Source: Candidatus Babelota bacterium (GTDB lineage Bacteria; Babelota; Babeliae; Babelales; UASB340). From it: DNA of 64,000 bases. Of the stretch, positions 20,938-39,169 are shown in pieces. Location of the stretch: the NCBI GenBank assembly GCA_014730005.1, contig WJIY01000035.1:8997-72996 (forward strand), in the 5' to 3' direction. The notes beneath the pieces are model-generated. The model did no database searches and was not told the origin of the DNA. It saw nothing but the letters and a program-made list of their open reading frames with translations. Position 1 is the first letter of the stretch, and each line of letters begins with the position of its first letter. A program made the position numbers and the translations under genes.

Positions 20938-21657
20938 CTACGCTGCCTTTTTACTTGCAGAAATTAAATTGTTATCTTTTTCATTCTCTACAATCTTTTT
21001 TGCTGTCGTTTTTTCATATTCTTCATCAATAGATTTTAAAAGCTCGTCTGTTTTATCTATAGAATCTTTTACAAATAAAATACCTGGTGTATTTCTATCA
21101 ATTACAAGGCCCCAATTTTTATTTTCAAAAATTTTACTTACATTAGCCAATTGTTTTTCTCTTAAACTCATTTGTTCTCTTTGAATTTTACGCTTAAGCT
21201 CAGCTTCTCGATCAGCTAATTCTCGTTCAGCATTCTTCTTCATTTTTTCTAATCTTTCACCTTTTTCCATTAAAGCTTCTTTACTTAAAACTTTAGCTTG
21301 TTTTTGCACTGTTTCCTGAAAATCCGCAACTTCTTGTTGAGCATTTTTTGCAAAATTTTGAAATTCCTCTATATCTTTTTGCAATTTTTGAGTTAACAAT
21401 TGACCTTCTTTTGATTTTTGCATCAAAAGGATGCTATCTATAGAAATCAATTTAGGTCTAGTTTTATTTGTTGAGGGCTTATTTTGGGTAGAAAAAGTTT
21501 TTTTCTCACGTTTTTTGACTTCCAAACCAGATTGAACTGCATCTTTTTTTAATTGAGGTTTATCAACGTTTTTTAATTGAGATTTATCTACTTTAACATT
21601 AGCAGCAAAAATACTACAACAACCCACAAAAGAAGTAAAAACTAAAATTTTTTTCAT
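20938..21657 (-). CDS. skp: Skp/OmpH-like periplasmic chaperone
   Basis: Signal peptide followed by a long Glu/Lys/Gln-rich coiled coil. Its position directly upstream of lpxD matches skp-lpxD clusters. Confidence 0.55.
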   Translation of the reverse strand: MKKILVFTSFVGCCSIFAANVKVDKSQLKNVDKPQLKKDAVQSGLEVKKREKKTFSTQNKPSTNKTRPKLISIDSILLMQKSKEGQLLTQKLQKDIEEFQNFAKNAQQEVADFQETVQKQAKVLSKEALMEKGERLEKMKKNAERELADREAELKRKIQREQMSLREKQLANVSKIFENKNWGLVIDRNTPGILFVKDSIDKTDELLKSIDEEYEKTTAKKIVENEKDNNLISASKKAA

Positions 21658-21764: not shown

Positions 21765-22433
21765 TTAATGAAGCGATTCATCAAAGCCCAATAATTTAAG
21801 ATTTTGTGTTTTTAAAAAATACAAGGCTACTTTATGCTGAATTTCAGATGATCGAAAGAAACAACATTGTAATTTATATAAATTACTTGAAGATTGATTT
21901 TCAACAAAATTTATATTTATCTGGTTGGAATTTGATCTTAAAGATTGTAAATAATCAGAATCCAACATAATCCAATTATTAGTACTAAAATCATTAAAGT
22001 TTTCATTTATATTTTTTGGCTTAATGCCAAGTAATATAAAATCATTAAAATCTATAAATTTTGTATCTCGGGGAATAAAAATTTTAGGTGCCTGCACATC
22101 TTCTAACTTAAAAATCGCAAAAATAGAATTTATTAAAATATTTTTTTTATTTACTAAGTTATTTATTAAATAAAAATTGTTATCATCTCTTTCAAAAGAC
22201 ACTATACCTTCTAGAATTTCTTTTTCATTTTTTCCTATTTGCGAATAAACCGCAATTACAAGAGTATTTTTTTGTATATTTAATTTCTTCAAATCCTCGC
22301 CAGTTAATTTATATAAAGAAAAAATTTCCATCTCTTCTATAAAAAGTCCCAAACTAATTTTTTCAGCAGAAATGAATTCTACAAATAAAACAAATAAACC
22401 CAATAAAAAAAACCTAATAAATTTAAACATCAT
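21765..22433 (-). CDS. Hypothetical secreted protein
   Basis: Signal-peptide-like N-terminus (FFLLGLFVLFVEFISA|EK). I recognise no family. Confidence 0.5.
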   Translation of the reverse strand: MMFKFIRFFLLGLFVLFVEFISAEKISLGLFIEEMEIFSLYKLTGEDLKKLNIQKNTLVIAVYSQIGKNEKEILEGIVSFERDDNNFYLINNLVNKKNILINSIFAIFKLEDVQAPKIFIPRDTKFIDFNDFILLGIKPKNINENFNDFSTNNWIMLDSDYLQSLRSNSNQININFVENQSSSNLYKLQCCFFRSSEIQHKVALYFLKTQNLKLLGFDESLH

Positions 22434-22617: not shown

Positions 22618-24327
22618 TTAAAAAATTTGATTGATTACTTTTTTAATATCTTCAGATTTAACAAAAGCACCTATAGCTGAATAAAAATTTGCATCATACT
22701 CTCTCGTTTTTATAACAACAGGCATTGGAACTGCATGTCCCATTACAAGGGCTTGTTTTTTGGTATCAAGAGTTGACAAAATTGAACGCAAACCACTTGT
22801 ATTACTGACGCCTGTTAAAATTGCTTGAATATCTTTTTCGTCATTTAACAATGCAATTATTTTTGTTCCAATTTGAGATAAAACTTCTGAATCAATCCCA
22901 GATGGTCGTTGATCAACTACAAGTAGAGAAACATAATATTTGCGCATTTCTCTTGCAATAACACCAAAAATAGTTTGTTTGGCTGCAATTGGATTTAAAA
23001 ACTTGTGTGCTTCTTCAATTGTTATCATTAATTTTTTGGGCTCATCTTCTTTTTTTTGTGTAGCTAAAAATTTTTCAGTCTTTGAAATATAAACATTATG
23101 TAATCTGCGCGTAATAATATTTGCAACTAAAAGATAACACAACATTGAAGTATTATTTCCAAACTCCAATACAACATTTATTCCTTTATCAAGATAAGAA
23201 ACCAACTTTTCAATGACAGATCCTGCTTTATTAAAATTTTGCAAAAAAGAAAAACGTTCTAATCTTTTAAGTTTTCGATATAAAGCGCTTATTGATTCAG
23301 CATGAGCACCTATTTCTTGTGCAAATTCTTTTAACCGTTCACCTTGGTCAAGCAAAATTTTTAACCAATCTTTTTTAAACTTACAAGCAACTAAATATGC
23401 TGCTTCTAGAGCTGTTGGATGCAAATTGAGTTCATCTTGCAATGAAATAATATCCTCCACATTTATATCCGAATAATTAAGAACAACCTCAACGTCTGGG
23501 GAACATCCTCTTTTCCTAGTAGCTTGAGGATCTAAAGAAAAAATAACAACTTGCGATGGAAATAAACTTTTCAAACCCTTTACAAAAGATTGACCACCAC
23601 CCTCTTTTCTTGCTTGAAAACCATATTCACTATGCATATCAAAAATTAAATTGACAGCTTTTTGACTTCTAACTAAACCTGCTAAAATTAAACGAGTAAT
23701 AAAAGTTTTTCCTGTACCACTTTTACCAAAAATTCCATTACTTCTTTCTGTAAAATAATCTAGATTCAAACAAACAGGAGTTGTCATATCAAGAGGCACA
23801 CCTATGTTGAAATATTTTTCACCCTGCTGTTCTTCACCAAAAATTTGTGATACATCTTGAGCATTTGCGTCATAAACAACCGAAAAATGCGCCGGAATTG
23901 TTTTTACTGGCATCTTATTTTTTTCTTTATCAAGCATCAACATTGGTCGAAGAAAAACTTTTACATAAATATCTCTCTTTTTCAAAATTTCATGCAAAAA
24001 TAATTCATCCTCCTGTGGAGGAAAAAGTAAAATATCTGGATTGGTAACTTCAAGTTGCAAATCTGTTATTAAAGAAAAAAATGTATATTGATTTCCTTTT
24101 ATTGTTACAAATTTTCCAGTTTTTACATCTTCTAACCCAGAAGTAGAATCTAATCTGAGTATAAGTCCATCACTTAACGATCCCGATAAAATATGTCCCA
24201 ATTTTTTTCTATTCATTAAAACCTTTTTTGAGATAAAAAAGACAATTCTGAATATTTTTTTATAAATAAAAGGAATAATTTTAATCAATAAACTTACAAA
24301 AAAATTAACAATTTTTAGAAAAAACAA
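22618..24327 (-). CDS. HerA-like (DUF87/FtsK-HerA superfamily) P-loop ATPase
   Basis: A HAS-barrel-like N-domain (GHILSGSLSDGLILRL...KTGKFVTIKG) is followed by Walker A GKSGTGKTF, Walker B MITIEEAHKF and LLVVDQRPSGIDSEVLSQIGTKIIALL. An internal ATG at 24216 (MNRKKLGHIL, AAGG upstream) is an alternative start. The first 37 codons are F/I/K-rich. Confidence 0.75.
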   Translation of the reverse strand: MFFLKIVNFFVSLLIKIIPFIYKKIFRIVFFISKKVLMNRKKLGHILSGSLSDGLILRLDSTSGLEDVKTGKFVTIKGNQYTFFSLITDLQLEVTNPDILLFPPQEDELFLHEILKKRDIYVKVFLRPMLMLDKEKNKMPVKTIPAHFSVVYDANAQDVSQIFGEEQQGEKYFNIGVPLDMTTPVCLNLDYFTERSNGIFGKSGTGKTFITRLILAGLVRSQKAVNLIFDMHSEYGFQARKEGGGQSFVKGLKSLFPSQVVIFSLDPQATRKRGCSPDVEVVLNYSDINVEDIISLQDELNLHPTALEAAYLVACKFKKDWLKILLDQGERLKEFAQEIGAHAESISALYRKLKRLERFSFLQNFNKAGSVIEKLVSYLDKGINVVLEFGNNTSMLCYLLVANIITRRLHNVYISKTEKFLATQKKEDEPKKLMITIEEAHKFLNPIAAKQTIFGVIAREMRKYYVSLLVVDQRPSGIDSEVLSQIGTKIIALLNDEKDIQAILTGVSNTSGLRSILSTLDTKKQALVMGHAVPMPVVIKTREYDANFYSAIGAFVKSEDIKKVINQIF

Positions 24328-24422: not shown

Positions 24423-24797
24423 CGGGGGCGTCACGGCTTCGACGTGATGTTTTGTGTTTTGAGAGCATGTCGAGTTTTGTATGGGAACTCGTAAAAAAAC
24501 ATTCAAAACAAAAAGTGCAGACAATAATGCTGCTGAAAATGTTGTATATGCCTAATTAAGGCGACAGCATTTTTCTTGTTAGTAAGATGTGTCTATCCAT
24601 CAAACTAACTCGTATTACCCTAGATAGAACTCTCTTGCAAGAATTTTTGGTTTTGTAACAAGAGAAAATCACTAAACCGGCTCTTATTTATTACTATGCT
24701 CTTGAGGTATAAATGAGAGTATATTCAGGAGCTAAACATGTAGTGCTTAAAATACTTTGCTTTGCGGACATGGGTTCGACTCCCATCGCCTCCACCA
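24423..24797 (+). ncRNA. ssrA: tmRNA (SsrA)
   Basis: The 5' GGGGGCG pairs with the 3' CGCCTCC, giving a G3:U pair, followed by an encoded ACCA. The T-arm is GGGTTCGACTCCC. The internal tag ORF GCA GAC AAT AAT GCT GCT GAA AAT GTT GTA TAT GCC TAA spans 24517..24555. Confidence 0.92.
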
Positions 24798-24910: not shown

Positions 24911-25837
24911 ATGGTACATAATATTATAATTATTGGTTCTGGACCAGCAGGTTTAACTTCAGGAGTTTATGCAGGTCGAGCAAAATTAGAACCTTTATTA
25001 ATCGAAGGAAAACAACCAGGTGGACAATTAACTACAACTATGAAAGTAGAAAATTGGCCAGGCATTAAAGAAATTGAAGGTCCAAAATTAATGATGGCAA
25101 TGAAAAAACATGCTCAAGATAGCAATTGTAAAATAATTTCCGACATTGTCACAAAAGTAGATTTTTCAAAACAACCATACAAAGTTTACACTAAAAAAGG
25201 GAAAGAATTTCAAGCCAAAGCTGTTATAATTTCAACAGGAGCTTCTCATATGAAATTAGGAATTCCTGGAGAAGAAGAATATTGGGGAAAAGGAGTTTCG
25301 GTTTGTGCTACTTGTGATGCCCCATTTTATAAAGATAAAAATGTTGTAATTATTGGTGGCGGAAATACAGGAATTTATGATGCTGATTTTTTATCTCGAA
25401 TTGCAAAAAAAGTTACAATCATTCAAAACAAATCGGAACTTACAGCAACAGATCCAATTAAATATAGAGTGCAAGAACAAAAAAATGTTGAAATTATTTA
25501 CAATACTGTTGTTACAGAAATAAAAGGCGAAAACGAAAAGGTTAAAAAAGTTATTATCAAAAATGAAAGCACAAATGAAACTAAAGAACTTGAAATTGAT
25601 GGTGTATTTATAGCAATCGGTTTAAAACCCAATACCAAAATATTTCAAAAAGAACTTAAGTTAGATAATGATGGATATATTCCTTTAAAAAATAAAACTA
25701 TGACAGCAAAGAAAGGAATATTTGCTTGCGGTGATGTAGTAGATAAAATTTATAAGCAAGCAATTACAGCTTCTGGCCAAGGATGCAAAGCAGCACTTGA
25801 TTGTCAAGAATATTTAAGCAATTTAAATTCAAAATAA
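24911..25837 (+). CDS. trxB: Thioredoxin-disulfide reductase
   Basis: IIGSGPAGLT (FAD), the redox-active CATCDA motif and GGGNTG (NADPH) are present. The protein is 308 aa. Confidence 0.92.
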   Translation: MVHNIIIIGSGPAGLTSGVYAGRAKLEPLLIEGKQPGGQLTTTMKVENWPGIKEIEGPKLMMAMKKHAQDSNCKIISDIVTKVDFSKQPYKVYTKKGKEFQAKAVIISTGASHMKLGIPGEEEYWGKGVSVCATCDAPFYKDKNVVIIGGGNTGIYDADFLSRIAKKVTIIQNKSELTATDPIKYRVQEQKNVEIIYNTVVTEIKGENEKVKKVIIKNESTNETKELEIDGVFIAIGLKPNTKIFQKELKLDNDGYIPLKNKTMTAKKGIFACGDVVDKIYKQAITASGQGCKAALDCQEYLSNLNSK

Positions 25838-25922: not shown

Positions 25923-27509
25923 TTAATTTTTTCCTCTTTGTTTTGCAACTATATTTGCGGCATGAATATGTTCTTTTATTTTTTCATCAACAACATCATC
26001 ACAAATATCCCTTGTCAATTTACCATTTCCAATATTATATGCAACAACTCTTAGCTCAGATACCATCTGTTCAATTTCACGTCCACTAAATCCGTCAATT
26101 TTTTTAGTAATATTTTCAATATATTCACGATTAATTTCTGGTAAAATTTCAATCATTCGCTCCTGCACAGCTCCATCAATTTCAAATTTACGCTCGTCAT
26201 TTACAATGTATTTATCAAAATACAAATTAAATATTTTCAATCTTTCCGGATATGCTGGTAGATCAAAACAAACCTTTTTATGTATCCTACTTAAAACAGC
26301 TGAATCAAGATCATCTGCATAATTTGTAGCAAGAATAAGCATAAATTTAAATGAACTTTCACCTGTTTGAGATAAAAACGCATTCACAATCTTTCTTCCA
26401 ATATCATCAAGAGTTTTTCTATTACCTAATGCAGAATCTGCTTCATCAACAAATATAATTAATCCTTTTTTACTTAAATTTGCCCAATCAAAAACTTTAT
26501 GTAGTTCCGTTATACCTTCACCATTTTTAAATTGTGCAAAATCAGCACCAGACATTATTGCATAATCCATGTCGGAATACTTTGCTAATCTTTTTGCAAA
26601 CATAGTCTTACCAGTTCCTGGAGGCCCATAAAACAAAATATTTCTAAAAGGCAAACCGTTTTGTGCACAACTTTTTGTGTCATCCGCTAACATTTTTAAT
26701 TTTTTTGCCATAGTTGGCTGTAAAATAACCTCCTCTAAAGAATTTTTTTCAGGTTCAATACCTAAAATTGTTTCCTTGAAAAATTTTCTCAATGCAAACT
26801 TCCAATCATGACGCGATGATTCGCGTATCAAATTTGGTTTTCCTAATTTTGCATTTAAATAATTAAAGACTAAATTAGCTCCATAATATGAATTTATTAT
26901 TGCAGCAGTAGCTAGAACTACCACACCACCACCAACAGCTAAATTTCTGGGTTTAAAAAATTCTTGTAATCTCTCCATTTTTCCCTTGTTAGTTTCTTTT
27001 CCTTTGGCTGCTGCTTTTAATATTGTTTCTCTTTCTTTTCTTGCTTGATTTGCATTTGCATATATATGATCAAATCCCTGACTCAAAACATTAAATAAAA
27101 GTTTTCTTCCTCCATCTTCCCATTCCCTAGCACTATTTTTATCTTTTTCAATTTCATTTTTTAGAGTATCTCTTTCTTTTTCTAAACTTTTTAGTCTAGC
27201 CTTAAATTCATTTTCAGGTATTGTAAATCTTCTGTTTTCAGCAAATAAAGCATTAATCCTGGTTTCAATTTCTTTTATTTTTGATTGTTTTTTTCTTTCT
27301 TCTTCTGCACGTCTTTCCGCCGCATCTCTTGCTATTTGATGCATCGTTTGAGCAAATTCATCAACTGCTTTAGCTGGATTTATATCAAATTGTTCTCCAA
27401 ACATATTAAATCTAAAACCTCCAGGACCATTTTGCATAGGTTTTAAACATGAAAAATTATTCAAAAATAAAAAAATAACCAAAAAATAAAATCTAAATTT
27501 TATAAACAT
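25923..27509 (-). CDS. ATAD3-like membrane AAA+ ATPase (N-terminal hydrophobic segment, coiled coil, TM, AAA domain)
   Basis: [96 protein letters not shown] and [23 protein letters not shown] match, block for block, the human ATAD3A sequence as I recall it. There is also an E/K/R-rich coiled coil and a central TM ([26 protein letters not shown]). Confidence 0.75.
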   Translation of the reverse strand: [528 protein letters not shown]

Positions 27510-27527
27510 AATTAACCTTTATTTAAA

Positions 27528-29174
27528 TTAATAATTTGAAATCCCATGATAATATAAAGATAGAACACCTAAACCGCTATAAGCACATATTACAAATGAC
27601 AAAAGCCCAACCAACAATACCTCTTCAGGATTTTCTCGCCAATTTTTAAAATATTTAAAAATACTATTTACTTTATCCTTAATAACCTGAAAATTCTCAT
27701 CATTTCTATGATTTAAAATAAATTTTCCAACTAAAAACATTATTGGCAAAGATAACAATATATTGGCTTTAAATTCAGTTGACGAAAAAGCTTTATTTTT
27801 ATTTTGCAGCCAAAAGCAAAATGTTAAATCATGTCCTTTTAAAATAAAACTAGATAATTCTTTTTCTATAACTTCAATTGTTTTTATATTTCTAGATTCT
27901 TTAGCACCACGATATTCATACAACAATTCCAAAAATTCATTTTTATTTCTCTTTAAATATGAAATCCATTGATCTTTATATGTTAATGAATTTAAATTTT
28001 TTATAGTTTTACTTAATATAAAAAACTCTTTTATAATCTTGAAAAAAGGATGGTCTAATATTTTAAAAAAAATTTTCTTTTTAACTTGACCTTCATTATT
28101 GGTATAACATTTCAAAGGATTTACTAATTTACTTACTAGGCGAGCAAAATAATTCGTACCTGCAACCAAAGAACGATTATAATATGAATCACAAAACAAT
28201 CCCCAAATTCCCGTTGGTTCAAAAAATAATTTTAAAAATCCAGTTAAAGTCAAAGAAAATTCTGGATCAAAATTAAAAATAATATTTCCATTATCCATGT
28301 GCATCTTTAATGGATAAAAGCTGCAATCTAAATTATATGGCTTATCGAGTAATAATTGTCTCCATTCAGTAATATCTCGCGGACCCAAAAAATATTCTTT
28401 TATAAATATTGAAAATTCAAAAAAAACTATGTATAAAAATATTTTTTTATATAATATATTTTTAAATATTTCTTTATAATCAAAAGAATTTTCTTTTTTT
28501 ATATAATTATTAAGCTCATTTTCTTCTTTTTTTAGCAAACCCTCCAATTCTTTTTTTCTATCATTATCTACAAAAATTTCATCCAATTCGCATTCATATT
28601 CATCTATTTTTTCAAATAGCTTTATCAAAGATAAATAATCATTTTTTATCTTTGTTGTAGCTTTTTCTACAAACAAATTTCGTAAAACATTTTTAAACCA
28701 CCGCTCTGCATATAAATCCATACCCCAAAGAGGGATTTTAACTAGATCACCATTACAAAGTTTTAAATCTATTTTTAGCTTTAATTTATTCGCCTCTTCA
28801 TGAGAAATATTATTATTTAATGTTTTTGCCAATCCAGACAATGGGATCTCTAATGGAACTTGTGCTATCTCTCTGCTTAAAAAATCACAAGCTTCTTTTT
28901 GCTTGTAAAATGCAGGATTTGAAATTTTATCAATCTCTTCTTCTGTTAAAGGTGGGTTGTTTTCATACTCTTTTAAAATTTCTTCTGCTTGAGCAATTGT
29001 TCCTTCGATATCAAAATTTTTTATAATATCAATATCATTTTTTACATCTACATTTTCTTGCACACAAAATAAAAATGACGTATTAAAAAAGATTAATGCT
29101 GATAAAAATAATCCCGCACCAAAATTATAAGACGTAAATGATAGTTTGATAAAATTAAATTGTTTTTTAAACAT
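27528..29174 (-). CDS. Hypothetical membrane protein (548 aa), immediately upstream of the ATAD3-like gene
   Basis: N-terminal hydrophobic segment (GLFLSALIFFNTSFLF), a mid-protein hydrophobic stretch (IFLYIVFFEFSIFI) and two C-terminal TMs. It lies 18 nt from the downstream AAA gene. I recognise no family. Confidence 0.55.
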   Translation of the reverse strand: MFKKQFNFIKLSFTSYNFGAGLFLSALIFFNTSFLFCVQENVDVKNDIDIIKNFDIEGTIAQAEEILKEYENNPPLTEEEIDKISNPAFYKQKEACDFLSREIAQVPLEIPLSGLAKTLNNNISHEEANKLKLKIDLKLCNGDLVKIPLWGMDLYAERWFKNVLRNLFVEKATTKIKNDYLSLIKLFEKIDEYECELDEIFVDNDRKKELEGLLKKEENELNNYIKKENSFDYKEIFKNILYKKIFLYIVFFEFSIFIKEYFLGPRDITEWRQLLLDKPYNLDCSFYPLKMHMDNGNIIFNFDPEFSLTLTGFLKLFFEPTGIWGLFCDSYYNRSLVAGTNYFARLVSKLVNPLKCYTNNEGQVKKKIFFKILDHPFFKIIKEFFILSKTIKNLNSLTYKDQWISYLKRNKNEFLELLYEYRGAKESRNIKTIEVIEKELSSFILKGHDLTFCFWLQNKNKAFSSTEFKANILLSLPIMFLVGKFILNHRNDENFQVIKDKVNSIFKYFKNWRENPEEVLLVGLLSFVICAYSGLGVLSLYYHGISNY

Positions 29175-29324: not shown

Positions 29325-29520
29325 ATCCGCTCACCCTACTAAGCCGCCATAGCCATGACATTAATGGGCGAATGTTGCAGTGATTTTGCAATGTTTACAA
29401 GAATTATATGTTTGCTCCAAAAAAGCTATAGTTGCCAAGAGTCACAATCGAGATGATTCTTCAATGCTATTTTGCAAAAATCACTCAGAATGAACGAGTG
29501 AAAAAATCATATCGAAGAGC
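29325..29520. other. GC-enriched intergenic island with a long imperfect hairpin; candidate structured RNA or gene relic
   Basis: CCGCTCACCCTACTAAGCCGCCATAGCCATGAC is conspicuously GC-rich in AT-rich surroundings. AGTGATTTTGCAA (29379..29391) pairs with TTGCAAAAATCACT (29472..29485), and AAGAAT (29399..29404) pairs with ATTCTT (29456..29461). Confidence 0.3.
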
Positions 29521-29584: not shown

Positions 29585-31945
29585 TTATGATTGTTTCCTA
29601 CTTTTCAAACTTCTTTTTGTTTTAGTTTTTCCTTTCTCTAATTTCTGTTTTTCTTCTTCTACCGCTTCTGAAACTCGAAAATATGGATCCTTGGTTATTT
29701 CTACAGATTTTGGCTGTTTAGCTCCATATGTATAATTATCAATTGGTCTAAATATTCCTTTTCTTGCATCTTCAATTTTTTCTCTTGCAGATTGCTTAGA
29801 TGGTTTAAAGAACCATCTTTGAATAGGATCTTTTTCTTTTGCATATGTATCAACATTAAGACTTTGAAACTTAGCATAATCAAGTTTTAATTGAGTATAT
29901 TCATCTGGAACACCTTCAAAACGAGGTTTGATAATACTTGGACGAATAAAGATATATAAATTAGATCTTTCTTTATTTTTTGTTTTACTTCTAAAAAGAT
30001 TCCCAATTAAAGGAATATCTCCCAGAATTGGAACTTTATATTGATTTTCAGTTAATTTACTTCTTGTAAGTCCACCCAAAACTAAAACTTCACCTGTCCC
30101 AATATTAACTCTCGTTGAAAGAACTCTATCATCAGTATTTGGACTTGTTCCAGTCACTTCTTGAAAGCTTGTAATATCAACATTAATTTTAAGATCAACA
30201 GTTCCATTCAAATTTACCTTAGGTGTTAGTTTTACTAAGGTAGATGCATCTTTATATTCTTTTTTAACTACTGCTTCCGTCCCTGTTCTATTATCCTGTA
30301 ATCCAGCATCAGCTTGACGAGTCTCTTTAGCCTCAACAAAACACTCTTGATAATTATTAGCTACTAAAAATGGTTGTGTAATAATATTGAAATTATCTTT
30401 TTTCAATATTGCTCGAACCAAGCCCCACAAATTTGAACTAGGACCAAACGACATATTTGTTCTAATAATGTTACGATCCGCATTGGTTGTTACAACTTTA
30501 ATATCAGATGAATCTTGCATTGTTCTAAATTGCATATTAATTCCAGCACCAAAATAATTTGGATGTTTTGGTTTAACTTGTGACCATAACTCATCATCTG
30601 TTTTAATCGAAACATCTACAACCATAACTTCAAAAGCAACTTGCGGTTGTGGTTTATCCAATTTATCTATAAATCCTTCTATTCTTTTCCAATCATCCTG
30701 GTTGCAAGCAATAATTAATCTATTGCCACCACCCTGTTGATCTCCCTGCGAAGAATCAGCCGCAATGATAACATCTTCAAAAAATTTATACTCACCAACT
30801 TTAATAGCTTTTCCTACACCCGCAGGAGGATTAACAAGATTAGTTAAAAGTGGTTGTAAATTTTCTGCCTTTGCATATTTAATTTCCTTTATGTGCAATC
30901 TTGATTCAGTTGCAGTAATTGGAACATCAATATATTTATAAACAAAAGCTATAATTTTATCTAAATTCTTTTCGGTACCCAGTAAAATTAAAGAATTATT
31001 TCTAGAATCCGGAATAATTCTTGTATCTTTTGAAAAATAACTGGAAGGTTTTTTAACATTAGAAGGCATAAATCTTATATTTCCTCTCTGTTGATCTCCC
31101 TGAGGAATAATCTCATTAAATAAGGTTACAACATCTTGAACATCTGCATATTTTAAAGGAATAATCTTTATCGATTCTCTCAATCCTCCTTGGTCTAATT
31201 CTTTTACAATTTTCATTGAAGCTTTAATATCAAGACATTTTGCTGTTATTATACAGGCATCAAGATCGCGATTAATTTGAACAGTCCCATCTATCATTGT
31301 AGAAAGAATACCTTGAACATTTTCTGCTTTTATATTTTTTAAAAAATATAAATAACGAACAACTAAATCACTATCAGGAAGTTGCTCCGGCTCTGTTCCT
31401 GTTGCAGATGAATAAAATGGAAGCGGCTGACTTTTATCTTCTACTTTAGGTACAATTCTATAAAGTCCATCAACATTTATAATTGAAAAATTATTCATCT
31501 CCAACAAAGTTAATAAAATATTCCAGGCACTATCTAAAGTTAATGCCTCACGAGTTGATAATGTTACATTGATACCATCAAGCTCCTTACGTGGAATAAT
31601 GTTTATCTTCTTTTGCTCAGACATATAATTTACAACACTTGATAATGACGCATTTTCAAAATTTAAATAAATACCTCCTTTGTTGTTTTTATCTACCTTT
31701 TTTTTATTGGATTCCTTACTTTTTTTATTAGATTTTTCTTGCTTAAACAATTCATTTTGTTCAACTGTAGGATTATTTATAATTTTTACATTAGGCGTAT
31801 TAAGAGCCTCAGTCTCATTTACTTGATTTATTGCTTTACCGGATTTTTTTAAATCTATAGATAGTAAAAAAAACGGTGTCATCATTAAAAATAACAGCAC
31901 CATTTTTTTTGATTTGAATAATTTTATAATTTCTTTTATCATCAA
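29585..31945 (-). CDS. Secretin (GspD/PilQ superfamily), copy 2 of the dual-secretin block
   Basis: Signal peptide and an N0-type start (GIYLNFENASLSSVVNYMSEQKKINIIPR). The secretin core ends VPILGDIPLIGNLFRSKTKNKERSNLYIFIRPSIIKPR and is followed by a 111-aa C-terminal extension. The true start may be the internal MVLLFLMM. Confidence 0.88.
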   Translation of the reverse strand: MMIKEIIKLFKSKKMVLLFLMMTPFFLLSIDLKKSGKAINQVNETEALNTPNVKIINNPTVEQNELFKQEKSNKKSKESNKKKVDKNNKGGIYLNFENASLSSVVNYMSEQKKINIIPRKELDGINVTLSTREALTLDSAWNILLTLLEMNNFSIINVDGLYRIVPKVEDKSQPLPFYSSATGTEPEQLPDSDLVVRYLYFLKNIKAENVQGILSTMIDGTVQINRDLDACIITAKCLDIKASMKIVKELDQGGLRESIKIIPLKYADVQDVVTLFNEIIPQGDQQRGNIRFMPSNVKKPSSYFSKDTRIIPDSRNNSLILLGTEKNLDKIIAFVYKYIDVPITATESRLHIKEIKYAKAENLQPLLTNLVNPPAGVGKAIKVGEYKFFEDVIIAADSSQGDQQGGGNRLIIACNQDDWKRIEGFIDKLDKPQPQVAFEVMVVDVSIKTDDELWSQVKPKHPNYFGAGINMQFRTMQDSSDIKVVTTNADRNIIRTNMSFGPSSNLWGLVRAILKKDNFNIITQPFLVANNYQECFVEAKETRQADAGLQDNRTGTEAVVKKEYKDASTLVKLTPKVNLNGTVDLKINVDITSFQEVTGTSPNTDDRVLSTRVNIGTGEVLVLGGLTRSKLTENQYKVPILGDIPLIGNLFRSKTKNKERSNLYIFIRPSIIKPRFEGVPDEYTQLKLDYAKFQSLNVDTYAKEKDPIQRWFFKPSKQSAREKIEDARKGIFRPIDNYTYGAKQPKSVEITKDPYFRVSEAVEEEKQKLEKGKTKTKRSLKSRKQS

Positions 31946-32506: not shown

Positions 32507-34189
32507 TTACAATTCTTTTAATCGCAATTTTACAAAAAATTTTATTCCTTTATCTTCCACCAACCTTGAATCAATCTCTTCTTTTTCATCCCATAGTTTT
32601 AAAATTTTAGATTCAGAAAATCTTTTTTGAAGTTCTGCAAAATATCTAAAATGATCACTTCCAGTCTTTGATCTAAAAAATCCCTCAATTTCAATTTTTG
32701 TATCTGAATCTTGTTCAGATATAGCAATGGTTTCTATTGTTACATCAAATTTTCGTTTATCAATTATATTTGTCAATTCTTGCAAAATTACTAATGGACG
32801 AATTCCAGTTTTTTCAAACAACATCCATATTTCTTTTTTATCCTCAAGTACATTTTCCGCTTTTTGCGATAATTTTTGTAAATTAACCTGCCTTGGCAAG
32901 CTAATCTCTTTGGGAATCATTCTTCTTAATTTTGACTTTTCTCTATCTTCAATTCTTTGAATAAAAGATGAAAGCTTATTTATTTGAAAATAACCTCTAA
33001 TTATTAAAACAGTAAAAATCAAAAATAAAAGTAAACTAGCAGTTACAAGTTGACTTTTTACTAATTTTTTTTGTGGAAGAGAAAACTCCTTGCGCCTTAA
33101 ATCAAAATTTGCTTGTTGCTCTGAAGGCAAAGCGGTTCCCAAGGCAACTAAATATTTATTCCAACTCGAAATATATTCTTTTATTTTGTTTTTAAACTTA
33201 GTATCAACGAAAATTTTTTCAAAAGAAAAAACTTCACAAGGTATTTGTAATAAGTTTTGACTAAAACGAGAAAGTCCTTTTAATTCTGAATATTTACCTG
33301 TAAAAAACATTTTTGATATTTTTTGATAATCAACAATTTTCAAACTAAAAGAATTTAAAGTAAATTGAATATCATTAAAAAAATTTATAATATGTTTTTG
33401 TAAAGATTTTTCATAATTCGAATCACCTGTTGGATCCAAACCATATTTTTTTAATTTTTCTTGTGCCTGTTGCAAAGATATTTCTATTTCATTACTAACT
33501 GTCTTCAAAACAGTTAAAATTCCTCGAGGTATAATTCTTGTTAATCTCAAGCATCCTTCATCCAAAAAAGCAATCTGTGTTGAATGCGCTCCTAAATCTA
33601 TAATCACACTAGATTTTTCTATACTTTTATATTCAGGAATTTGTTTATAAAGACTATAAATTGCAAAAAGATCTACTGTCAAACAAGCAGGATCCACACC
33701 AGCTTGCAAGTACATATCAAGAGTTCGTTGAATATCTTCTTTTCTCACAGCCGCTACTAATATTTGTGAAGTTTTATCTTCTTTTGATTGTTTACTAATG
33801 ATAAAATCAATAATAGCTTCATCAACAGAAAAAGGCAGCATTGGTTCAATTTCATATTCTAAAATCATTCTGATTTTATCTTCATCTAAAAATGGAACTT
33901 TCAATTCTTTAAAGACAACTAAAGAAGCCGATAAAGCAATTCGAAGTTGATCATACTTTTCCATTCTTGCTACAACTTCTTTAATTGCTTGTGTAGCTCT
34001 TTCAGAATATGTTTGAATAGGACCATCTTCGATAGTCTGATCAATTAACTCTTCAATAATATTCTTTGATCTTTTGGCATAAATTTTTGCACAACTAACA
34101 ACATCTTCTTGTATAGTTAAACCTAAAATTTTTTGAGCATAAAGTCTTTTTGATCCAATTCTCGGAGGTAAAAAAATTCTTCTTATCAT
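32507..34189 (-). CDS. PilM-PilN fusion protein (GspL-like architecture)
   Basis: The first ~350 aa are an actin-like/PilM-type domain (ILGLTIQEDVV..., VIIDLGAHSTQIAFL). Next come a TM (LVTASLLLFLIFTVLIIRGYF) and a ~170-aa periplasmic domain. The start overlaps the upstream secretin stop by ATGA. Confidence 0.65.
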   Translation of the reverse strand: MIRRIFLPPRIGSKRLYAQKILGLTIQEDVVSCAKIYAKRSKNIIEELIDQTIEDGPIQTYSERATQAIKEVVARMEKYDQLRIALSASLVVFKELKVPFLDEDKIRMILEYEIEPMLPFSVDEAIIDFIISKQSKEDKTSQILVAAVRKEDIQRTLDMYLQAGVDPACLTVDLFAIYSLYKQIPEYKSIEKSSVIIDLGAHSTQIAFLDEGCLRLTRIIPRGILTVLKTVSNEIEISLQQAQEKLKKYGLDPTGDSNYEKSLQKHIINFFNDIQFTLNSFSLKIVDYQKISKMFFTGKYSELKGLSRFSQNLLQIPCEVFSFEKIFVDTKFKNKIKEYISSWNKYLVALGTALPSEQQANFDLRRKEFSLPQKKLVKSQLVTASLLLFLIFTVLIIRGYFQINKLSSFIQRIEDREKSKLRRMIPKEISLPRQVNLQKLSQKAENVLEDKKEIWMLFEKTGIRPLVILQELTNIIDKRKFDVTIETIAISEQDSDTKIEIEGFFRSKTGSDHFRYFAELQKRFSESKILKLWDEKEEIDSRLVEDKGIKFFVKLRLKEL

Positions 34190-36942
34190 GCCAAACTCCT
34201 CCGCTTCAATCCTGAAGTTTGGCGCCTCTTCATTTTATTTGATAATTGATTAAGATTTATATTTTCTTTAATCCTAATATTGTCTGTTCTTCTATAATTC
34301 GACTTAACATTTTCATTATTAGCTAACCTAGAATGCCTGTTAAACTGTTGCTTTTCCTCATTTATAGACTGCTTATGGGTATTATTACTATTTTCTATTT
34401 GATTAGCTTCAGGTTTTGTAATAATTAAAGATTTTAACTCTTCTCGTTTTTCATCATCTACAGATATTTTCTTATCCTGAGTATCCTGATGAATAGTCAT
34501 TTGATCTCCTGCAATTAACTCCTTTAATTTTTTTCTCTTATACTCTAAATCTCTATCTTTTTTTTGGTCATCTGTTTTAGATTTAATTTCTTGAATTCTA
34601 CGTTCAGCTTGTAAATCTGCATCTAAAATATCTTCTTCTTCTTCTTTTTCATCTTTTAAATGTACTCGATAATAAGGATCGTGTTTTATATCAACAGTAG
34701 TGGGTTGATATCTTGCATTTGCAAAATCCGTAACTTTATGAGAATAATCCTCTTTTTCCGGATTAAAAAACCAATTATGAATAGGATCTTTAGTTTTTTT
34801 AGTTTGAACCGCATCTTCTATATAATCAGTGGCATCATGAAGTTTCATTCTTGTATAAAGATTTATACCCGGCTGTTGGCGTGGTTTTATAATTGTTGGT
34901 GACATAAAAACAAAAACATAATTTTTTTGAACTTCACGTTTTTTATTTTTAAACATCCATCCAAGCCCAGGAATATCACCTAGAAGAGGAGTTTTATTTT
35001 GACTTTCCGTTACCTTTGTCCTAATAAAACCACCTAAAACTAATACCTGACCATCTGCTACAGATACATCTGTTGTTAATGTTTTTTCATCTTTATTACC
35101 CAAGCTAGCATTTGTAAACTCACTAAAAACAACATTAATTGTTAATCTTATAATTCCATCCAAATTTATTTGAGGGGTTATTTTTAAATCAGTATTGGCT
35201 GAAACATACGTATAACCTTTTAATGCTCCACCTGCAGTTTCCTGTTGTACGACATGTTGAGTACTTCCAACAACAATATTAGCCTGAGTCTTATTAGTTA
35301 CAGTAAAAAATGGCTGAGATAAAATGCTTGCATTTGATTGGCTCTTTAATGCCTTAAAAATTCCCCAAATATTTTCACCCTTACCAAATGTTAAAATACT
35401 TGAACCAAGTCCTCCAGTTAATCCATAAAACATATTTCCAAGCAAACTATTTTCTGCAACACCTTGTTGGTATCCTTTTTCTACTGTTCCTGCAAAAGTA
35501 GGAGACTGAAAATTAACACCTTTTCCAATTTGACCTTCATATTTATTACGAATTGCACCGCCTAATTCCTTTTCATCATCCATATTAACAGTTACTATTA
35601 ATGTTTCTATTCCAACTTGCGGTTGAGGCTTATCTAAATCTTCAATCGTTTTTTTTAATAACTTCCAATCTTGTTTATCAGTAGTTGATACAATCAAGCG
35701 ATTACCATCTTTATCAACTTGAAATTTCATCGGTTTGAAATATTTTACCCCTCCTCGTACTGCTCCATATTTAGATGCAACTTCTTCTTTGCTTGCAGTT
35801 ACAGATTCCAAAATCTCTTTTGCTTGAGCTGCATCTATATGCTGCAACTCATAAATATGCAAGGGCGATTGCGCACCTTTTAATTCTTTATCAATATTAT
35901 TTGTAATAAAATCTTCAATTTTTTTAATTGATTTTTGATTGCCAAGCAAAATCAAAGAATTTGTTCTCTTTTCATCGATAATTCTGGTTGTTGGAGAAAA
36001 ATATTCAAGAGAACTTTCAGCTTGTTTACCAAGCAATCGAGCAATTGGATTTGGTTGCTCTGGTCTTTGAATTAAACTATCCAGTAATCCTTTCACATCT
36101 GTTGCATTTGCCCTTTTTAATTTTATTACAACAACCGATTCTTGCAATCCTGTCTGATCTAATTCACGAATAACTTTCATTGCAGATCTAATATTAAAAG
36201 ATTTATCAGTAATAATCATTCCATTTATTTCAGGATATAAAACTAAAGAATGCTCCGGACTCAACATACTTTTTAATAAATCCTGTATCGTGGTAACACT
36301 TATATTTTGCAAAAAAGGAACATATCTTATATTCGCATCACTTTCTGGTAAAGTATCTAAGGGAACATTTATATACGAAGGCAAAGGCTGAACTGTTTTT
36401 TGTTTTTTAGGAATAACAACACTTACATCACCCCTTTCGATAATGCTAAATCCAGCCATATCAAGAACTGTCAAAAATACTCTCCAAGCACCTTCAACCG
36501 TTAATGGTTCACGGATTGTTAAAGAAACTTTTACTCCTTGAAGAGCCTTATCTGGCATTAAATTAATTTGTTTAAGTTCTGCAATACGATTTATAAAATT
36601 TGAAAGCTCCGCATTCTCAAAATTTAAATATATTTTTCCATCACAATCGATTTTTTTATTACTCAATTTAGGAAATTCTCTCTCTTCTTTATTTTCATTA
36701 ATTAAATTATTATTATCTTTTTTCTTTGTAAAATCCTCAACCTTTTCATCTGTAGGTATATCACTATTTAATATTTCAACAACACTTTCTTTTTCTATTT
36801 TTTCAACTAATTTTTCTTTTTGATCACTTAAAACATTTTTATCTGAAAAATCCTCCGTTGATCTTTTTTTTAATTGAGCAGTCTGCGCCTGCATAGTTAA
36901 AACACAAATAAAAGGAATCAATAAAATTATAAATTTTTTCAT
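34186..36942 (-). CDS. Secretin (GspD/PilQ superfamily), copy 1 of the dual-secretin block, with a long C-terminal tail
   Basis: Signal peptide (FICVLTMQAQTA) and an N0-type block (KIYLNFENAELSNFINRIAELKQINLMPD). The secretin core ends TPLLGDIPGLGWMFKNKKREVQKNYVFVFMSPTIIKPR and is followed by a 230-aa extension. Confidence 0.88.
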   Translation of the reverse strand: MKKFIILLIPFICVLTMQAQTAQLKKRSTEDFSDKNVLSDQKEKLVEKIEKESVVEILNSDIPTDEKVEDFTKKKDNNNLINENKEEREFPKLSNKKIDCDGKIYLNFENAELSNFINRIAELKQINLMPDKALQGVKVSLTIREPLTVEGAWRVFLTVLDMAGFSIIERGDVSVVIPKKQKTVQPLPSYINVPLDTLPESDANIRYVPFLQNISVTTIQDLLKSMLSPEHSLVLYPEINGMIITDKSFNIRSAMKVIRELDQTGLQESVVVIKLKRANATDVKGLLDSLIQRPEQPNPIARLLGKQAESSLEYFSPTTRIIDEKRTNSLILLGNQKSIKKIEDFITNNIDKELKGAQSPLHIYELQHIDAAQAKEILESVTASKEEVASKYGAVRGGVKYFKPMKFQVDKDGNRLIVSTTDKQDWKLLKKTIEDLDKPQPQVGIETLIVTVNMDDEKELGGAIRNKYEGQIGKGVNFQSPTFAGTVEKGYQQGVAENSLLGNMFYGLTGGLGSSILTFGKGENIWGIFKALKSQSNASILSQPFFTVTNKTQANIVVGSTQHVVQQETAGGALKGYTYVSANTDLKITPQINLDGIIRLTINVVFSEFTNASLGNKDEKTLTTDVSVADGQVLVLGGFIRTKVTESQNKTPLLGDIPGLGWMFKNKKREVQKNYVFVFMSPTIIKPRQQPGINLYTRMKLHDATDYIEDAVQTKKTKDPIHNWFFNPEKEDYSHKVTDFANARYQPTTVDIKHDPYYRVHLKDEKEEEEDILDADLQAERRIQEIKSKTDDQKKDRDLEYKRKKLKELIAGDQMTIHQDTQDKKISVDDEKREELKSLIITKPEANQIENSNNTHKQSINEEKQQFNRHSRLANNENVKSNYRRTDNIRIKENINLNQLSNKMKRRQTSGLKRRSLA

Positions 36943-39157: not shown

Positions 39158-39169
39158 AAAAAATCCCCA

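What the first reader, a model, noticed from the sequence alone, without database searches (positions are those of the whole stretch)
25923..27509. Full-length homologue of the eukaryotic mitochondrial AAA+ protein ATAD3 encoded in a bacterial operon
- The similarity covers the whole ATAD3 architecture, not just a generic AAA domain.
- There is an E/K/R-rich coiled coil of ~170 aa, then a single central TM.
- The juxtamembrane block is [12 protein letters not shown] (human ATAD3A: LGKPSLVRETSR, from memory).
- [37 protein letters not shown] corresponds to [38 protein letters not shown].
- [25 protein letters not shown] corresponds to [25 protein letters not shown].
- [21 protein letters not shown] and [22 protein letters not shown] also match.
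- ATAD3 is generally treated as a eukaryote-specific inner-mitochondrial-membrane organiser.
- A bacterial copy implies host-to-symbiont gene transfer, possibly with a mimicry or effector role, or an unrecognised bacterial origin of the family.
- The N-terminus has been replaced by a hydrophobic signal or anchor. The predicted topology (coiled coil outside, AAA in the cytoplasm) mirrors the mitochondrial one.
Basis: partly seen in the sequence, partly recalled or inferred. Interest (0 to 1): 0.8.

Follow-up and report, generated by a model that had tools for sequence, protein, structure and literature searches.

The report
Bacterial branch of mitochondrial ATAD3 family
An intracellular bacterium (phylum Dependentiae) carries a native membrane-anchored relative of ATAD3, a protein thought to exist only in eukaryotic mitochondria; the bacterial relatives are numerous and old, so they may mark where the mitochondrial protein came from.

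Summary
The ORF at 25923-27509 (- strand, 528 aa) is real, and every quoted motif is present. It is a true relative of eukaryotic ATAD3. Outside its own bacterial family the best matches are ATAD3 (E ~1e-64; 38% identity over 362 aa). That alignment covers the helix before the transmembrane (TM) segment, the TM, the juxtamembrane LGKPxL[IV]RExSR block, the AAA core and the lid. Generic prokaryotic AAA proteins match the core only (<=114 bits against 230-340).

It is not full-length. The N-terminal coiled coil shows no detectable homology to ATAD3_N, and Pfam ATAD3_N scores 13 bits (cut-off 25).

The gene is compositionally native and sits among unmistakably bacterial genes. It belongs to a large family (136 bacterial sequences in my trees) with paralogues, conserved synteny and a tightly linked, fast-evolving upstream partner gene.

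Eukaryotic ATAD3 forms one clade (80-97% bootstrap). Bacteria are never monophyletic (0-2%). Outgroup, midpoint and MAD rooting all place some bacterial lineages on the eukaryote side. All eukaryotes share a pore-loop deletion that bacteria and outgroups lack.

Recent host-to-symbiont transfer is therefore rejected. The direction of the ancient transfer is unresolved but leans bacterial. No paper in the library mentions bacterial ATAD3.

The parts
25923..27509 (-). ATAD3-like AAA+ ATPase gene (528 aa plus stop). NCBI lists the identical protein as 'AAA family ATPase [Candidatus Dependentiae bacterium]'.
   Evidence: ORF. Identical database entry P0001. Best non-family hits are eukaryotic ATAD3.
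27435..27509 (-). N-terminal hydrophobic signal peptide or signal anchor (aa 1-25, [25 protein letters not shown]). The cleavage site is uncertain and the lipobox is poor.
   Evidence: Kyte-Doolittle hydropathy >1.4. 116 of 136 bacterial family members have such a hydrophobic N-terminus.
26955..27377 (-). Charged alpha-helical ectodomain (aa 45-185), predicted as a helical hairpin and predicted to be periplasmic.
   Evidence: 42% E/D/K/R. AlphaFold helices 45-93 and 99-167, pLDDT up to 97. No detectable homology to eukaryotic ATAD3_N.
26865..26951 (-). Single central transmembrane helix (aa ~187-215).
   Evidence: Hydropathy. AlphaFold helix 187-222. Aligned to the TM of Octopus ATAD3-B.
26811..26846 (-). 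Juxtamembrane signature [12 protein letters not shown] (aa 222-233), an ATAD3-family synapomorphy.
   Evidence: P225, L227, E230 and S232 are conserved in >=80% of both bacterial and eukaryotic members and absent from outgroups. The motif was scanned across the family.
26262..26639 (-). AAA ATPase core (aa 291-416): Walker A GPPGTGKT (295), Walker B IIFVDE (351), sensor-1 N396, Arg R408.
   Evidence: Pfam PF00004, E = 7e-26. Motifs. pLDDT >90.
26514..26540 (-). Pore-loop 1 (aa 324-332, FAQFKNGEG) with aromatic F327. It has the same length as in generic AAA proteins. All eukaryotic ATAD3 carry a 2-residue deletion here and have no aromatic residue.
   Evidence: Column profiles: bacteria Q93% F91%, eukaryotes A-P-[LM]-G with a gap, outgroup E-M-[FY]-V-G.
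25926..26261 (-). AAA lid and C-terminal helical region (aa 417-528), aligned to ATAD3 up to aa 514.
   Evidence: alignment. pLDDT >90. Family-specific conserved L417, E422, S475 and R477.
27510..27527 (-). 18-bp intergenic spacer with an AAAGG Shine-Dalgarno-like element between the partner's stop codon and the ATAD3-like start codon.
   Evidence: Sequence read.
27528..29174 (-). Conserved upstream partner gene (548 aa; NCBI 'hypothetical protein GF322_03475'). It is alpha-helical, with hydrophobic segments at aa 20-38, 240-258, 470-488 and 519-537 and a conserved C-terminal F-x-F-W-L-x-N-K-N motif.
   Evidence: Homologous to the gene immediately upstream of ATAD3-like genes in L081, L083, L084 (two copies), L087 and L096. 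No Pfam, NCBIfam or PADLOC hit. Topology.
29481..29501 (-). Terminator-like hairpin between the upstream secretin gene and the partner gene. It suggests that partner plus ATAD3-like form their own bicistronic unit.
   Evidence: 2 terminator-like sites found against 0.8 expected. This is weak evidence.
24911..25837 (+). Thioredoxin-reductase-type gene lying convergent just downstream. It is a syntenic neighbour, not shown to be functionally linked.
   Evidence: Pfam Pyr_redox_2, E = 8e-54. Same convergent arrangement in L085; Pyr_redox_2/thioredoxin genes lie next to the cassette in L081, L084 and L085.

Best explanation
The gene encodes a native, vertically inherited bacterial member of the ATAD3 family of AAA+ ATPases.

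Shown:
- It shares with eukaryotic ATAD3 one continuous homologous block. The block runs from ~25 residues before the single TM helix, through the juxtamembrane LGKPxL[IV]RExSR motif and a catalytically intact classical AAA module, to the C-terminal lid.
- The family is large and deeply diverged in Dependentiae-type intracellular bacteria.
- A conserved partner gene usually lies immediately upstream.

Inferred mechanism:
- The N-terminal Sec-type signal or anchor places a ~140-residue charged helical hairpin in the periplasm.
- The TM acts as a stop-transfer, leaving the AAA module in the cytoplasm. This is the bacterial equivalent of ATAD3's arrangement (coiled coil in the intermembrane space, AAA module in the matrix).
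- Six copies form a ring under the inner membrane.
- ATP hydrolysis either pulls a polypeptide through a pore lined by the retained aromatic pore-loop residue (F327), or transmits force through the TM and juxtamembrane helices to the periplasmic hairpins and the co-encoded partner.
- Together they act as an envelope-spanning remodelling or extraction machine.

Evolution:
- The inter-domain transfer was ancient and not a recent host-to-symbiont capture.
- Eukaryotic ATAD3 is a single derived clade that branches beside or within the bacterial diversity.
For: Family identity:
- After ~78 bacterial relatives (E = 1e-156 to 1e-63), the next hits are eukaryotic ATAD3 at E ~1e-64.
- Identity to Octopus ATAD3-B is 38% over 362 aa, spanning TM to lid.
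- Generic prokaryotic AAA proteins score <=114 bits on the family-core HMM, on the core only; eukaryotic ATAD3 scores 230-340 bits.
- The family separates from outgroups at 100/100 bootstrap.
- Twenty columns are conserved in both groups and absent from outgroups.
- Seven bacterial relatives pass the Pfam ATAD3_N threshold (26-43 bits) on the TM-proximal part of the model.

Native gene:
- GC, GC3 and codon index are within 1 SD of neighbours.
- The context is bacterial.
- Synteny with TrxB and thioredoxin-fusion genes holds across genomes, and tandem paralogues occur.

Partner gene:
- All 7 strong partner homologues among 309 ORFs lie immediately upstream of an ATAD3-like gene on the same strand.
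- The spacer is 18 bp with AAAGG.

Topology and catalysis:
- Hydropathy, AlphaFold model with pLDDT 82, intact Walker A/B, N396 and R408.
- The aromatic pore-loop residue is retained.
- The closest solved folds are membrane-anchored AAA motors: Ycf2-FtsHi, i-AAA and FtsH.

Age and direction:
- Eukaryote monophyly 80-97%; bacterial monophyly 0-2%.
- Midpoint and MAD roots fall inside the bacterial part.
- Root-to-tip lengths are equal, 0.74 against 0.72.
- The eukaryote-wide pore-loop deletion is absent from bacteria and outgroups.
- A profile of the eukaryote-proximal bacterial lineage retrieves eukaryotic ATAD3 (320-346 bits) directly after its own four relatives. That lineage lies in bacterial gene contexts.
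Against: - The window protein itself fails Pfam ATAD3_N (13 bits).
- Its ectodomain has no demonstrable homology to the eukaryotic coiled coil.
- Signal-peptide cleavage is uncertain, because there is no canonical AXA site or lipobox.
- Hexamer formation, ATPase activity, topology and partner interaction are untested.
- The partner has no recognisable domain, and its model is unusable (pLDDT 39).
- The partner is absent or undetected in L085, L086 and the eukaryote-proximal lineage, so it is not obligatory.
- The trees are distance-based NJ only. Deep nodes have 19-50% support, and the MAD root is ambiguous (index 0.99).
Confidence: 0.6

Rival explanations
1. Ancient eukaryote-to-bacterium transfer. 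A stem or early eukaryotic ATAD3 was captured by the ancestor of Dependentiae, which are obligate parasites of protists. It then diversified there, lost most of ATAD3_N and gained a signal peptide. The apparent paraphyly of bacteria would be a rooting artefact.
For: - All named bacterial members belong to a single phylum of obligate eukaryote parasites, whereas ATAD3 spans animals, plants, algae, alveolates and Fonticula (PMC13249166; PMC3790746).
- Deep nodes are weak, at 19-50%.
- The polarised characters are also compatible with reciprocal monophyly.
- The eukaryote-versus-bacteria branch is only 13% worse by MAD.
- Babela is reported to have acquired genes from eukaryotes (PMC4378268).
Against: - Bacterial monophyly is recovered in 0-2% of bootstraps under four distance and column schemes.
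- Three rooting methods agree.
- Root-to-tip lengths are equal.
- Bacterial diversity is greater (mean identity 0.40 within bacteria, 0.49 within eukaryotes).
- Any donor would have to predate the pore-loop deletion shared by all 78 eukaryotic sequences.
Confidence: 0.27
2. Secreted effector or molecular mimic. The protein is exported into the host cell and inserts into host mitochondria, mimicking or interfering with host ATAD3.
For: - A Dependentiae pathogen, Chromulinavorax, remodels the host mitochondrion (PMC6561590).
- The protein has an N-terminal signal sequence.
- Secretin and type II secretion / type IV pilus genes lie adjacent in the window.
Against: - A Sec signal followed by a stop-transfer TM predicts retention in the bacterial inner membrane.
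- The ATP-requiring AAA domain would stay cytoplasmic.
- The gene is phylum-wide, syntenic, paralogous and linked to a bacterial partner gene.
- It is not host-lineage specific and shows no recent eukaryotic affinity.
- The Chromulinavorax paper mentions no such gene.
Confidence: 0.07
3. An ordinary bacterial AAA protein (FtsH, Cdc48 or SpoVK type), or an anti-phage AAA such as IetA, whose resemblance to ATAD3 is generic or convergent.
For: - Pfam reports only PF00004 above threshold.
- The best PDB hits are Cdc48/p97.
- PADLOC IetA scores 76 bits.
- NCBIfam PAN, CdvC, IteA and FtsH score 60-68 bits.
Against: - All of those hits cover the AAA core only and fall far below the family cut-offs.
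- ATAD3 scores 230+ bits over TM to lid.
- Twenty family-specific columns include four outside the AAA domain.
- The family separates from outgroups at 100% bootstrap.
- The partner has no IetS or protease hit.
Confidence: 0.03
4. Host contamination or a chimeric contig: a eukaryotic ATAD3 fragment mis-assembled into a bacterial MAG.
For: The source is a metagenome-assembled genome.
Against: - The gene is intron-less with an 18-bp operonic junction.
- Its composition is native.
- Bacterial genes flank it on both sides.
- Homologues lie in syntenic bacterial contexts on contigs up to 728 kb from independent samples.
Confidence: 0.01

Closest known systems
Eukaryotic ATAD3 (ATAD3A/B/C; Pfam ATAD3_N PF12037 + AAA PF00004), an inner-mitochondrial-membrane AAA+ protein
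   Same: - One homologous block: TM-proximal helix, single TM, juxtamembrane LGKPxL[IV]RExSR, AAA core ('MDYA', 'FDWA', 'TGE/xS') and C-terminal lid.
- 33-40% identity.
- Equivalent topology: helical charged ectodomain in the inter-membrane compartment and the AAA module in the compartment equivalent to the cytoplasm or matrix.
   Different: - Encoded in a bacterial genome.
- An N-terminal signal or anchor replaces the proline-rich or presequence-like N-terminus.
- The ectodomain is ~100 aa shorter (median 169 against 264 aa) and not detectably homologous.
- Pore-loop 1 is full-length with an aromatic residue, where eukaryotes have a 2-residue deletion and L/M.
- It is linked to a bacterial partner gene.
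- The window protein is below the Pfam ATAD3_N threshold.
FtsH, i-AAA (Yme1) and the Ycf2-FtsHi chloroplast import motor (membrane-anchored classical AAA machines)
   Same: - Best solved structural matches (Foldseek E ~1e-14).
- N-terminal membrane anchor followed by a classical AAA module on the cytoplasm-equivalent side.
- Pore-loop of the same length with an aromatic or hydrophobic residue.
   Different: - No M41 protease domain.
- Sequence similarity is limited to the AAA core (~23-25% identity).
- The ATAD3-specific juxtamembrane block is absent from these proteins.
Msp1/ATAD1 and Bcs1 (TM-anchored AAA extractases or translocases without a protease domain; comparison from general knowledge, not tested here)
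   Same: An AAA ring tethered to a membrane by one TM helix per subunit, acting on membrane or translocating proteins. This is the kind of mechanism proposed here.
   Different: No specific sequence relationship was seen. These proteins lack a long ectodomain, and they did not appear among the best hits.
IetA of the IetAS anti-phage system (PADLOC)
   Same: A classical AAA ATPase encoded in a two-gene cassette. It is the best PADLOC hit, at 76 bits.
   Different: - The hit covers the AAA core only.
- The partner is not a protease and matches no IetS model.
- The score is far below that to ATAD3.
Expanded families in Babela massiliensis: signal-peptide 'Ulp1-like + AAA' proteins with neighbouring 'babelin' membrane proteins (PMC4378268)
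   Same: Also in Dependentiae, with AAA proteins bearing atypical signal peptides and encoded next to a family of uncharacterised membrane proteins.
   Different: - Those AAA proteins carry a ~390-aa N-terminal peptidase-like domain, not a 160-aa coiled coil.
- Identity of the families could not be tested because the stored supplement is truncated.

Membership tests
ATAD3 family (eukaryotic ATAD3A/B) | Classical AAA+ ATPase module with intact Walker A/B, sensor-1 and Arg residue | tested here: met
   PF00004, E = 7e-26. GPPGTGKT at 295, IIFVDE at 351, N396, R408.
ATAD3 family (eukaryotic ATAD3A/B) | Specific (orthology-level) sequence affinity to ATAD3 rather than to other AAA clades | tested here: met
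   - The first non-family hits are ATAD3, at 1e-64.
- 38% identity over 362 aa.
- 100% bootstrap against generic AAA.
- 20 shared family-specific columns.
ATAD3 family (eukaryotic ATAD3A/B) | Single central TM followed by the juxtamembrane LGKPSL[IV]RE[TS]SR block | tested here: met
   TM at aa 187-215. [12 protein letters not shown] at aa 222. Conserved in both groups.
ATAD3 family (eukaryotic ATAD3A/B) | Full-length ATAD3_N domain (Pfam PF12037, 265 positions) above the gathering threshold | tested here: not met
   - The window protein scores 13 bits against a cut-off of 25, on model positions 119-265 only.
- Bacterial relatives reach 26-43 bits but only on positions ~120/220-265.
- Eukaryotes match positions 7-265 at 158-358 bits.
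ATAD3 family (eukaryotic ATAD3A/B) | N-terminal coiled-coil region homologous to that of ATAD3 | tested here: inconclusive
   - A charged helical hairpin is present.
- hhalign finds no signal against eukaryotic N-termini (E = 0.35 and 0.25, equal to reversed controls).
- Coiled coils diverge fast, so absence of signal is not proof of non-homology.
ATAD3 family (eukaryotic ATAD3A/B) | Shortened pore-loop 1 (A-P-[LM]-G) shared by all sampled eukaryotic ATAD3 | tested here: not met
   The bacterial protein has FAQFKNGEG, with outgroup-like length and an aromatic F327.
ATAD3 family (eukaryotic ATAD3A/B) | Nuclear-encoded and localised to the mitochondrial inner membrane | tested here: not met
   The gene lies in a bacterial genome with native composition. 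Localisation itself cannot be tested with these tools.
ATAD3 family (eukaryotic ATAD3A/B) | Hexameric or higher-order oligomer spanning two membranes | not testable with these tools
   Only a monomer model was possible. No ATAD3 structure exists in the PDB copy searched.
FtsH family (NCBIfam TIGR01241) | AAA module plus C-terminal M41 zinc protease, scoring above the family cut-off | tested here: not met
   61 bits against a cut-off of 600, AAA core only, no protease domain.
IetAS anti-phage defence system | IetA ATPase paired with an IetS serine protease | tested here: not met
   IetA scores 76 bits on the core only. The partner gene has no PADLOC hit.

The most novel reading that the evidence does not exclude
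Eukaryotic ATAD3 is an essential organiser of the mitochondrial inner membrane whose origin has never been traced. On this reading it was acquired by the eukaryotic stem lineage from a Dependentiae-like intracellular bacterium, not from the alphaproteobacterial ancestor of mitochondria and not invented de novo. The bacterial proteins would then represent the ancestral state: an inner-membrane-anchored, envelope-spanning AAA+ motor with a threading-competent pore loop. Eukaryotes later extended the ectodomain and shortened the pore loop.
Probability: 0.35. Interest if true: 0.85.

Novelty: new variant of a known kind. Interest (0 to 1): 0.7.

Why it matters
- ATAD3 is essential in animals and in Plasmodium, is mutated in human neuro-mitochondrial disease, and still has no solved structure or agreed molecular mechanism (PMC13249166).
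- The field treats it as eukaryote-only and roots its trees with AFG3-like proteases (PMC13249166; PMC3790746).
- A large, old bacterial branch gives the proper outgroup or sister for ATAD3 evolution.
- It raises a testable hypothesis that a core mitochondrial membrane organiser came from a non-alphaproteobacterial intracellular bacterium.
- It offers small, intron-less, single-TM homologues, with a candidate partner, for biochemistry and cryo-EM.
- It points to the pore loop as a mechanistic difference: threading-competent in bacteria and degenerate in eukaryotes.
- It identifies a conserved, uncharacterised two-gene envelope module in Dependentiae, a phylum with almost no experimental biology.

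Tried and rejected
1. The genome-contig scan with the family alignment was wasted. No Dependentiae genomes or organism names came back. I reused those loci as outgroups.
2. Organism names for unnamed lineages: three cluster look-ups returned almost none. The taxon of the eukaryote-proximal bacterial lineage remains unknown. GC content and shared housekeeping genes were uninformative, and the Babelota paper gave no matching accessions.
3. The partner protein:
   - The word-indexed search found only the protein itself.
   - The single-sequence AlphaFold model was unusable, at pLDDT 39.
   - The alignment was too divergent for a metagenome pattern scan.
4. The afdb50 fold library was unavailable. 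The PDB Foldseek search shows only generic AAA cores.
5. The Babela supplement was searched for family motifs and 'babelin' sequences. The stored file is truncated, so the result is uninformative.
6. The viral-contig scan found no relatives.
7. One literature query was badly built and returned irrelevant papers.
8. Readings I considered and rejected: contamination or chimera, a generic AAA protein, and an IetAS-like defence system (see rival explanations).
9. Promoter scan: there were fewer sigma-70-like sites than in shuffled sequence (14 against 24.9), so no promoter is claimed.
Full report
**1. Observation**

The ORF sits exactly where stated: 25923..27509 on the - strand, 528 aa, ATG start. 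Two of the three human strings it recalled occur verbatim in vertebrate-type ATAD3 sequences that I fetched.

The N-terminus is hydrophobic (aa 1-25). Residues 46-185 are 42% charged. A single TM lies at aa ~187-215. An AlphaFold2 model built on a 32-sequence family alignment has mean pLDDT 82. It shows helices 45-93 and 99-167 (a hairpin), a long TM helix 187-222, and an AAA+lid module with pLDDT above 90.

**2. Is it ATAD3-like or a generic AAA protein?**

Pfam reports only PF00004 above threshold. ATAD3_N (PF12037, formerly DUF3523) reaches 13 bits, E = 0.065, on model positions 119-265. The best PDB and NCBIfam hits are Cdc48/p97, PAN, CdvC and FtsH, on the AAA core only and far below the family cut-offs.

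The large database search says otherwise. The identical protein is on record as 'AAA family ATPase [Candidatus Dependentiae bacterium]'. About 78 bacterial relatives follow it (Dependentiae, Babeliales, TM6; E = 1e-156 to 1e-63). The next hits are eukaryotic ATAD3 from plants and animals at E ~1e-64, and JGI's pipeline already labels several of the bacterial proteins 'ATAD3A/B'.

BLASTP against Octopus ATAD3-B gives 38% identity over 362 aa (query 160-514). The alignment runs from just before the TM, through the juxtamembrane block and the AAA core, into the lid. An HMM of the bacterial TM-to-C-terminus region scores eukaryotic ATAD3 at 230-340 bits over its full length. Generic prokaryotic AAA proteins reach at most 114 bits, on the core only.

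Twenty columns are conserved in at least 80% of both bacterial and eukaryotic members and are absent from outgroups. They include P225, L227, E230 and S232 in the juxtamembrane block, D315-Y316-A317, and W342. Seven bacterial relatives pass the Pfam ATAD3_N gathering threshold (26-43 bits), always on the C-terminal part of the model (positions ~120/220-265). True ATAD3 matches positions 7-265 at 158-358 bits.

**3. What is not homologous**

The ectodomain upstream of the TM does not align by BLAST. Profile-profile comparison of 131 bacterial against 60 eukaryotic N-terminal regions gives E = 0.35, identical to reversed-sequence controls. The eukaryote-proximal bacterial lineage does no better, at E = 0.25. 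The bacterial ectodomain is also shorter (median 169 against 264 aa).

The claim of 'full-length' homology is therefore not supported. Homology is firm from ~25 residues before the TM to the C-terminus. The coiled coil is similar in kind only.

**4. Is it a native gene?**

- GC (0.299), GC3 (0.144) and a codon-adaptation index (0.745) lie within 1 SD of 38 other ORFs in the window.
- The window encodes tmRNA, tRNA-Met, LpxD, PRPP synthetase, three secretins, PilM-like and GspC-like proteins, MlaEF, MreB, a Mur ligase, UvrB, PheT, NrdD and DnaG.
- Homologues lie in dense bacterial contexts on contigs up to 728 kb from independent samples.

Contamination and chimerism are excluded.

**5. A conserved partner gene**

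The 548-aa ORF at 27528-29174 ends 18 bp before the ATAD3-like start codon, with an AAAGG element in the spacer. A terminator-like hairpin separates it from the upstream secretin gene. It has no Pfam, NCBIfam or PADLOC hit.

It is nonetheless homologous to the unannotated gene immediately upstream of ATAD3-like genes in five other genomes:
- L081, E = 2e-18 to the window protein.
- L083.
- L084, two copies.
- L087, E = 1.4e-15 to the partner profile.
- L096, E = 3e-30 to the partner profile.

Among 309 ORFs from 12 loci, all seven strong partner-profile hits lie directly upstream of an ATAD3-like gene on the same strand, and none lies elsewhere.

The partner is absent or undetected in L085, L086 and the eukaryote-proximal lineage. 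It is helical and fast-evolving, with variable hydrophobic segments and a conserved C-terminal F-x-F-W-L-x-N-K-N motif. Thioredoxin-reductase-type genes are recurrent neighbours.

**6. Evolution**

An exhaustive phmmer search of 1.84 billion cluster representatives finds 692 with E <= 1e-30. I aligned 214 family members plus 9 generic-AAA outgroups (341 columns) and built Scoredist-NJ trees with 100 bootstraps.

- The family separates from the outgroups at 100%.
- All named eukaryotes fall in one clade at 88% (80-97% under other distance and column choices). These include plants, a fern, Chlorokybus, Octopus, an annelid, a sponge and Fonticula, together with MMETSP and EukProt protist sequences.
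- Bacterial monophyly is recovered in 0-2% of replicates.
- The rooted backbone is: outgroup, then a five-member basal bacterial group, then the main bacterial clade of 127 sequences (which includes the window protein), then two small bacterial lineages, then eukaryotes. Deep nodes have only 19-50% support.
- Midpoint rooting without an outgroup puts four bacterial sequences on the eukaryote side.
- The three best MAD roots also fall inside the bacterial part. The eukaryote-versus-bacteria branch ranks sixth and is 13% worse, with an ambiguity index of 0.99.
- Root-to-tip lengths are equal, 0.74 against 0.72.

Polarised characters agree with this picture:
- All 78 eukaryotic sequences share a 2-residue pore-loop-1 deletion and have lost the aromatic residue (A-P-[LM]-G).
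- Bacteria (Q-F-K-x-G) and outgroups (E-M-[FY]-V-G) keep the full-length loop.
- The main bacterial clade has its own derived deletion and substitutions. Eukaryotes, the basal group and the proximal lineages lack them.

A profile of the proximal lineage retrieves four more bacterial relatives, all with ATAD3_N hits, and then immediately eukaryotic ATAD3 at 320-346 bits. Those relatives sit in conserved bacterial synteny: hydrolase, ATAD3-like, HIT, DUF2608, class II aminoacyl-tRNA synthetase, Fic, NUDIX, OPT.

I draw three conclusions:
- A recent host-to-symbiont transfer from any crown eukaryote is rejected.
- The event is ancient.
- The data lean towards eukaryotic ATAD3 arising from within bacterial diversity, but NJ trees with weak deep nodes cannot settle this.

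**7. Mechanism (inferred)**

A Sec-type signal or anchor followed by a stop-transfer TM puts the helical hairpin in the periplasm and the ATP-dependent module in the cytoplasm. This matches the mitochondrial topology. The catalytic motifs are intact. The pore loop keeps an aromatic residue. The nearest solved folds are membrane-anchored AAA motors: Ycf2-FtsHi, i-AAA and FtsH.

I therefore propose a hexameric inner-membrane motor. It either threads a polypeptide or transmits force to its periplasmic hairpins and the partner protein, remodelling or bridging the envelope. An effector role is less likely because the TM should retain the protein in the bacterial membrane. Chromulinavorax, another Dependentiae species, does remodel the host mitochondrion (PMC6561590).

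**8. Prior knowledge**

No paper in the library pairs ATAD3 with Dependentiae, TM6, Babela or related names. Reviews and the June 2026 Plasmodium ATAD3 paper describe ATAD3 as present in animals, plants, algae and alveolates and absent from fungi. That paper roots its trees with AFG3-like proteins, relies on AlphaFold models, and never mentions bacteria. No ATAD3 structure is in the PDB copy searched.

Automated annotation (JGI) has flagged the similarity, so the bare resemblance is not unseen. The following appear to be undescribed: the size and age of the bacterial family, its distinct architecture, its partner gene, and its phylogenetic position.

**9. Verdict**

This is a real, native bacterial branch of the ATAD3 family, and a new variant of a known kind. 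Interest is 0.7. Its main value is as a lead on the origin and mechanism of ATAD3.

Noticed in passing
window 29585-31945, 34186-36942, 53352-55034 (all - strand); 32507-34189; 36953-38080: There are three GspD/PilQ-type secretin genes within 64 kb, with a PilM-like gene and a GspC-like gene between two of them. This is an unusually high secretin density for a reduced intracellular genome.
   Followed up: partly
window 24424-24797 (+): A tmRNA gene with tag peptide ADNNAAENVVYA lies ~1.1 kb from the ATAD3-like gene.
   Followed up: no
window 22618-24327 (-): A HerA-like ATPase (DUF87 plus HAS-barrel) with a TTG start. The two ORFs downstream of it on the - strand (21765-22433, 20938-21657) have no family hit.
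   Followed up: no
window 57484-59562, 43387-44733, 13651-14745, 8153-8995 (all +): Four sizeable ORFs (692, 448, 364 and 280 aa) have no Pfam hit at E <= 1e-5.
   Followed up: no
window 15684-17606 (-): An anaerobic ribonucleotide reductase (NrdD) gene in a presumed obligate intracellular bacterium.
   Followed up: no
L084:2487-11262 (GCA_020633995.1, contig JACKCO010000003.1): Three ATAD3-like paralogues lie in tandem, two of them with their own partner gene. A Dependentiae-type thioredoxin-reductase/thioredoxin fusion lies upstream. The NCBI label 'Epsilonproteobacteria bacterium' is probably a mis-assignment.
   Followed up: partly
L088:248-6971, L089:8824-18578, L090:9080-21140: The bacterial lineage closest to eukaryotic ATAD3 has its own conserved synteny: alpha/beta hydrolase, ATAD3-like, HIT, DUF2608, class II aminoacyl-tRNA synthetase, Fic, NUDIX, OPT. 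It has no partner gene and 37-41% GC. Its phylum could not be determined.
   Followed up: partly
window 24911-25837 (+); L081:2310-3758; L084:862-2361; L085:3223-4740 and 6632-7549: Thioredoxin-reductase-type genes, some fused to thioredoxin, recur next to the ATAD3-like cassette in four genomes, with DsbD nearby in two. The Babela paper notes an expansion of thioredoxin reductases in this phylum. A redox link is possible but untested.
   Followed up: partly
proteins P0130, P0133, P0147, P0175, P0184, P0225: Giant proteins of 1,800-2,100 aa with 4-7 tandem AAA domains rank high in the representative search because their domain scores add up. They are unrelated to the ATAD3 family core.
   Followed up: no
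window 38168-42015 (-): A MoxR-type AAA gene, an NtrC-type response regulator and MlaF/MlaE lipid-transport genes lie in one co-directional block. These are more envelope-related genes near the cassette.
   Followed up: no
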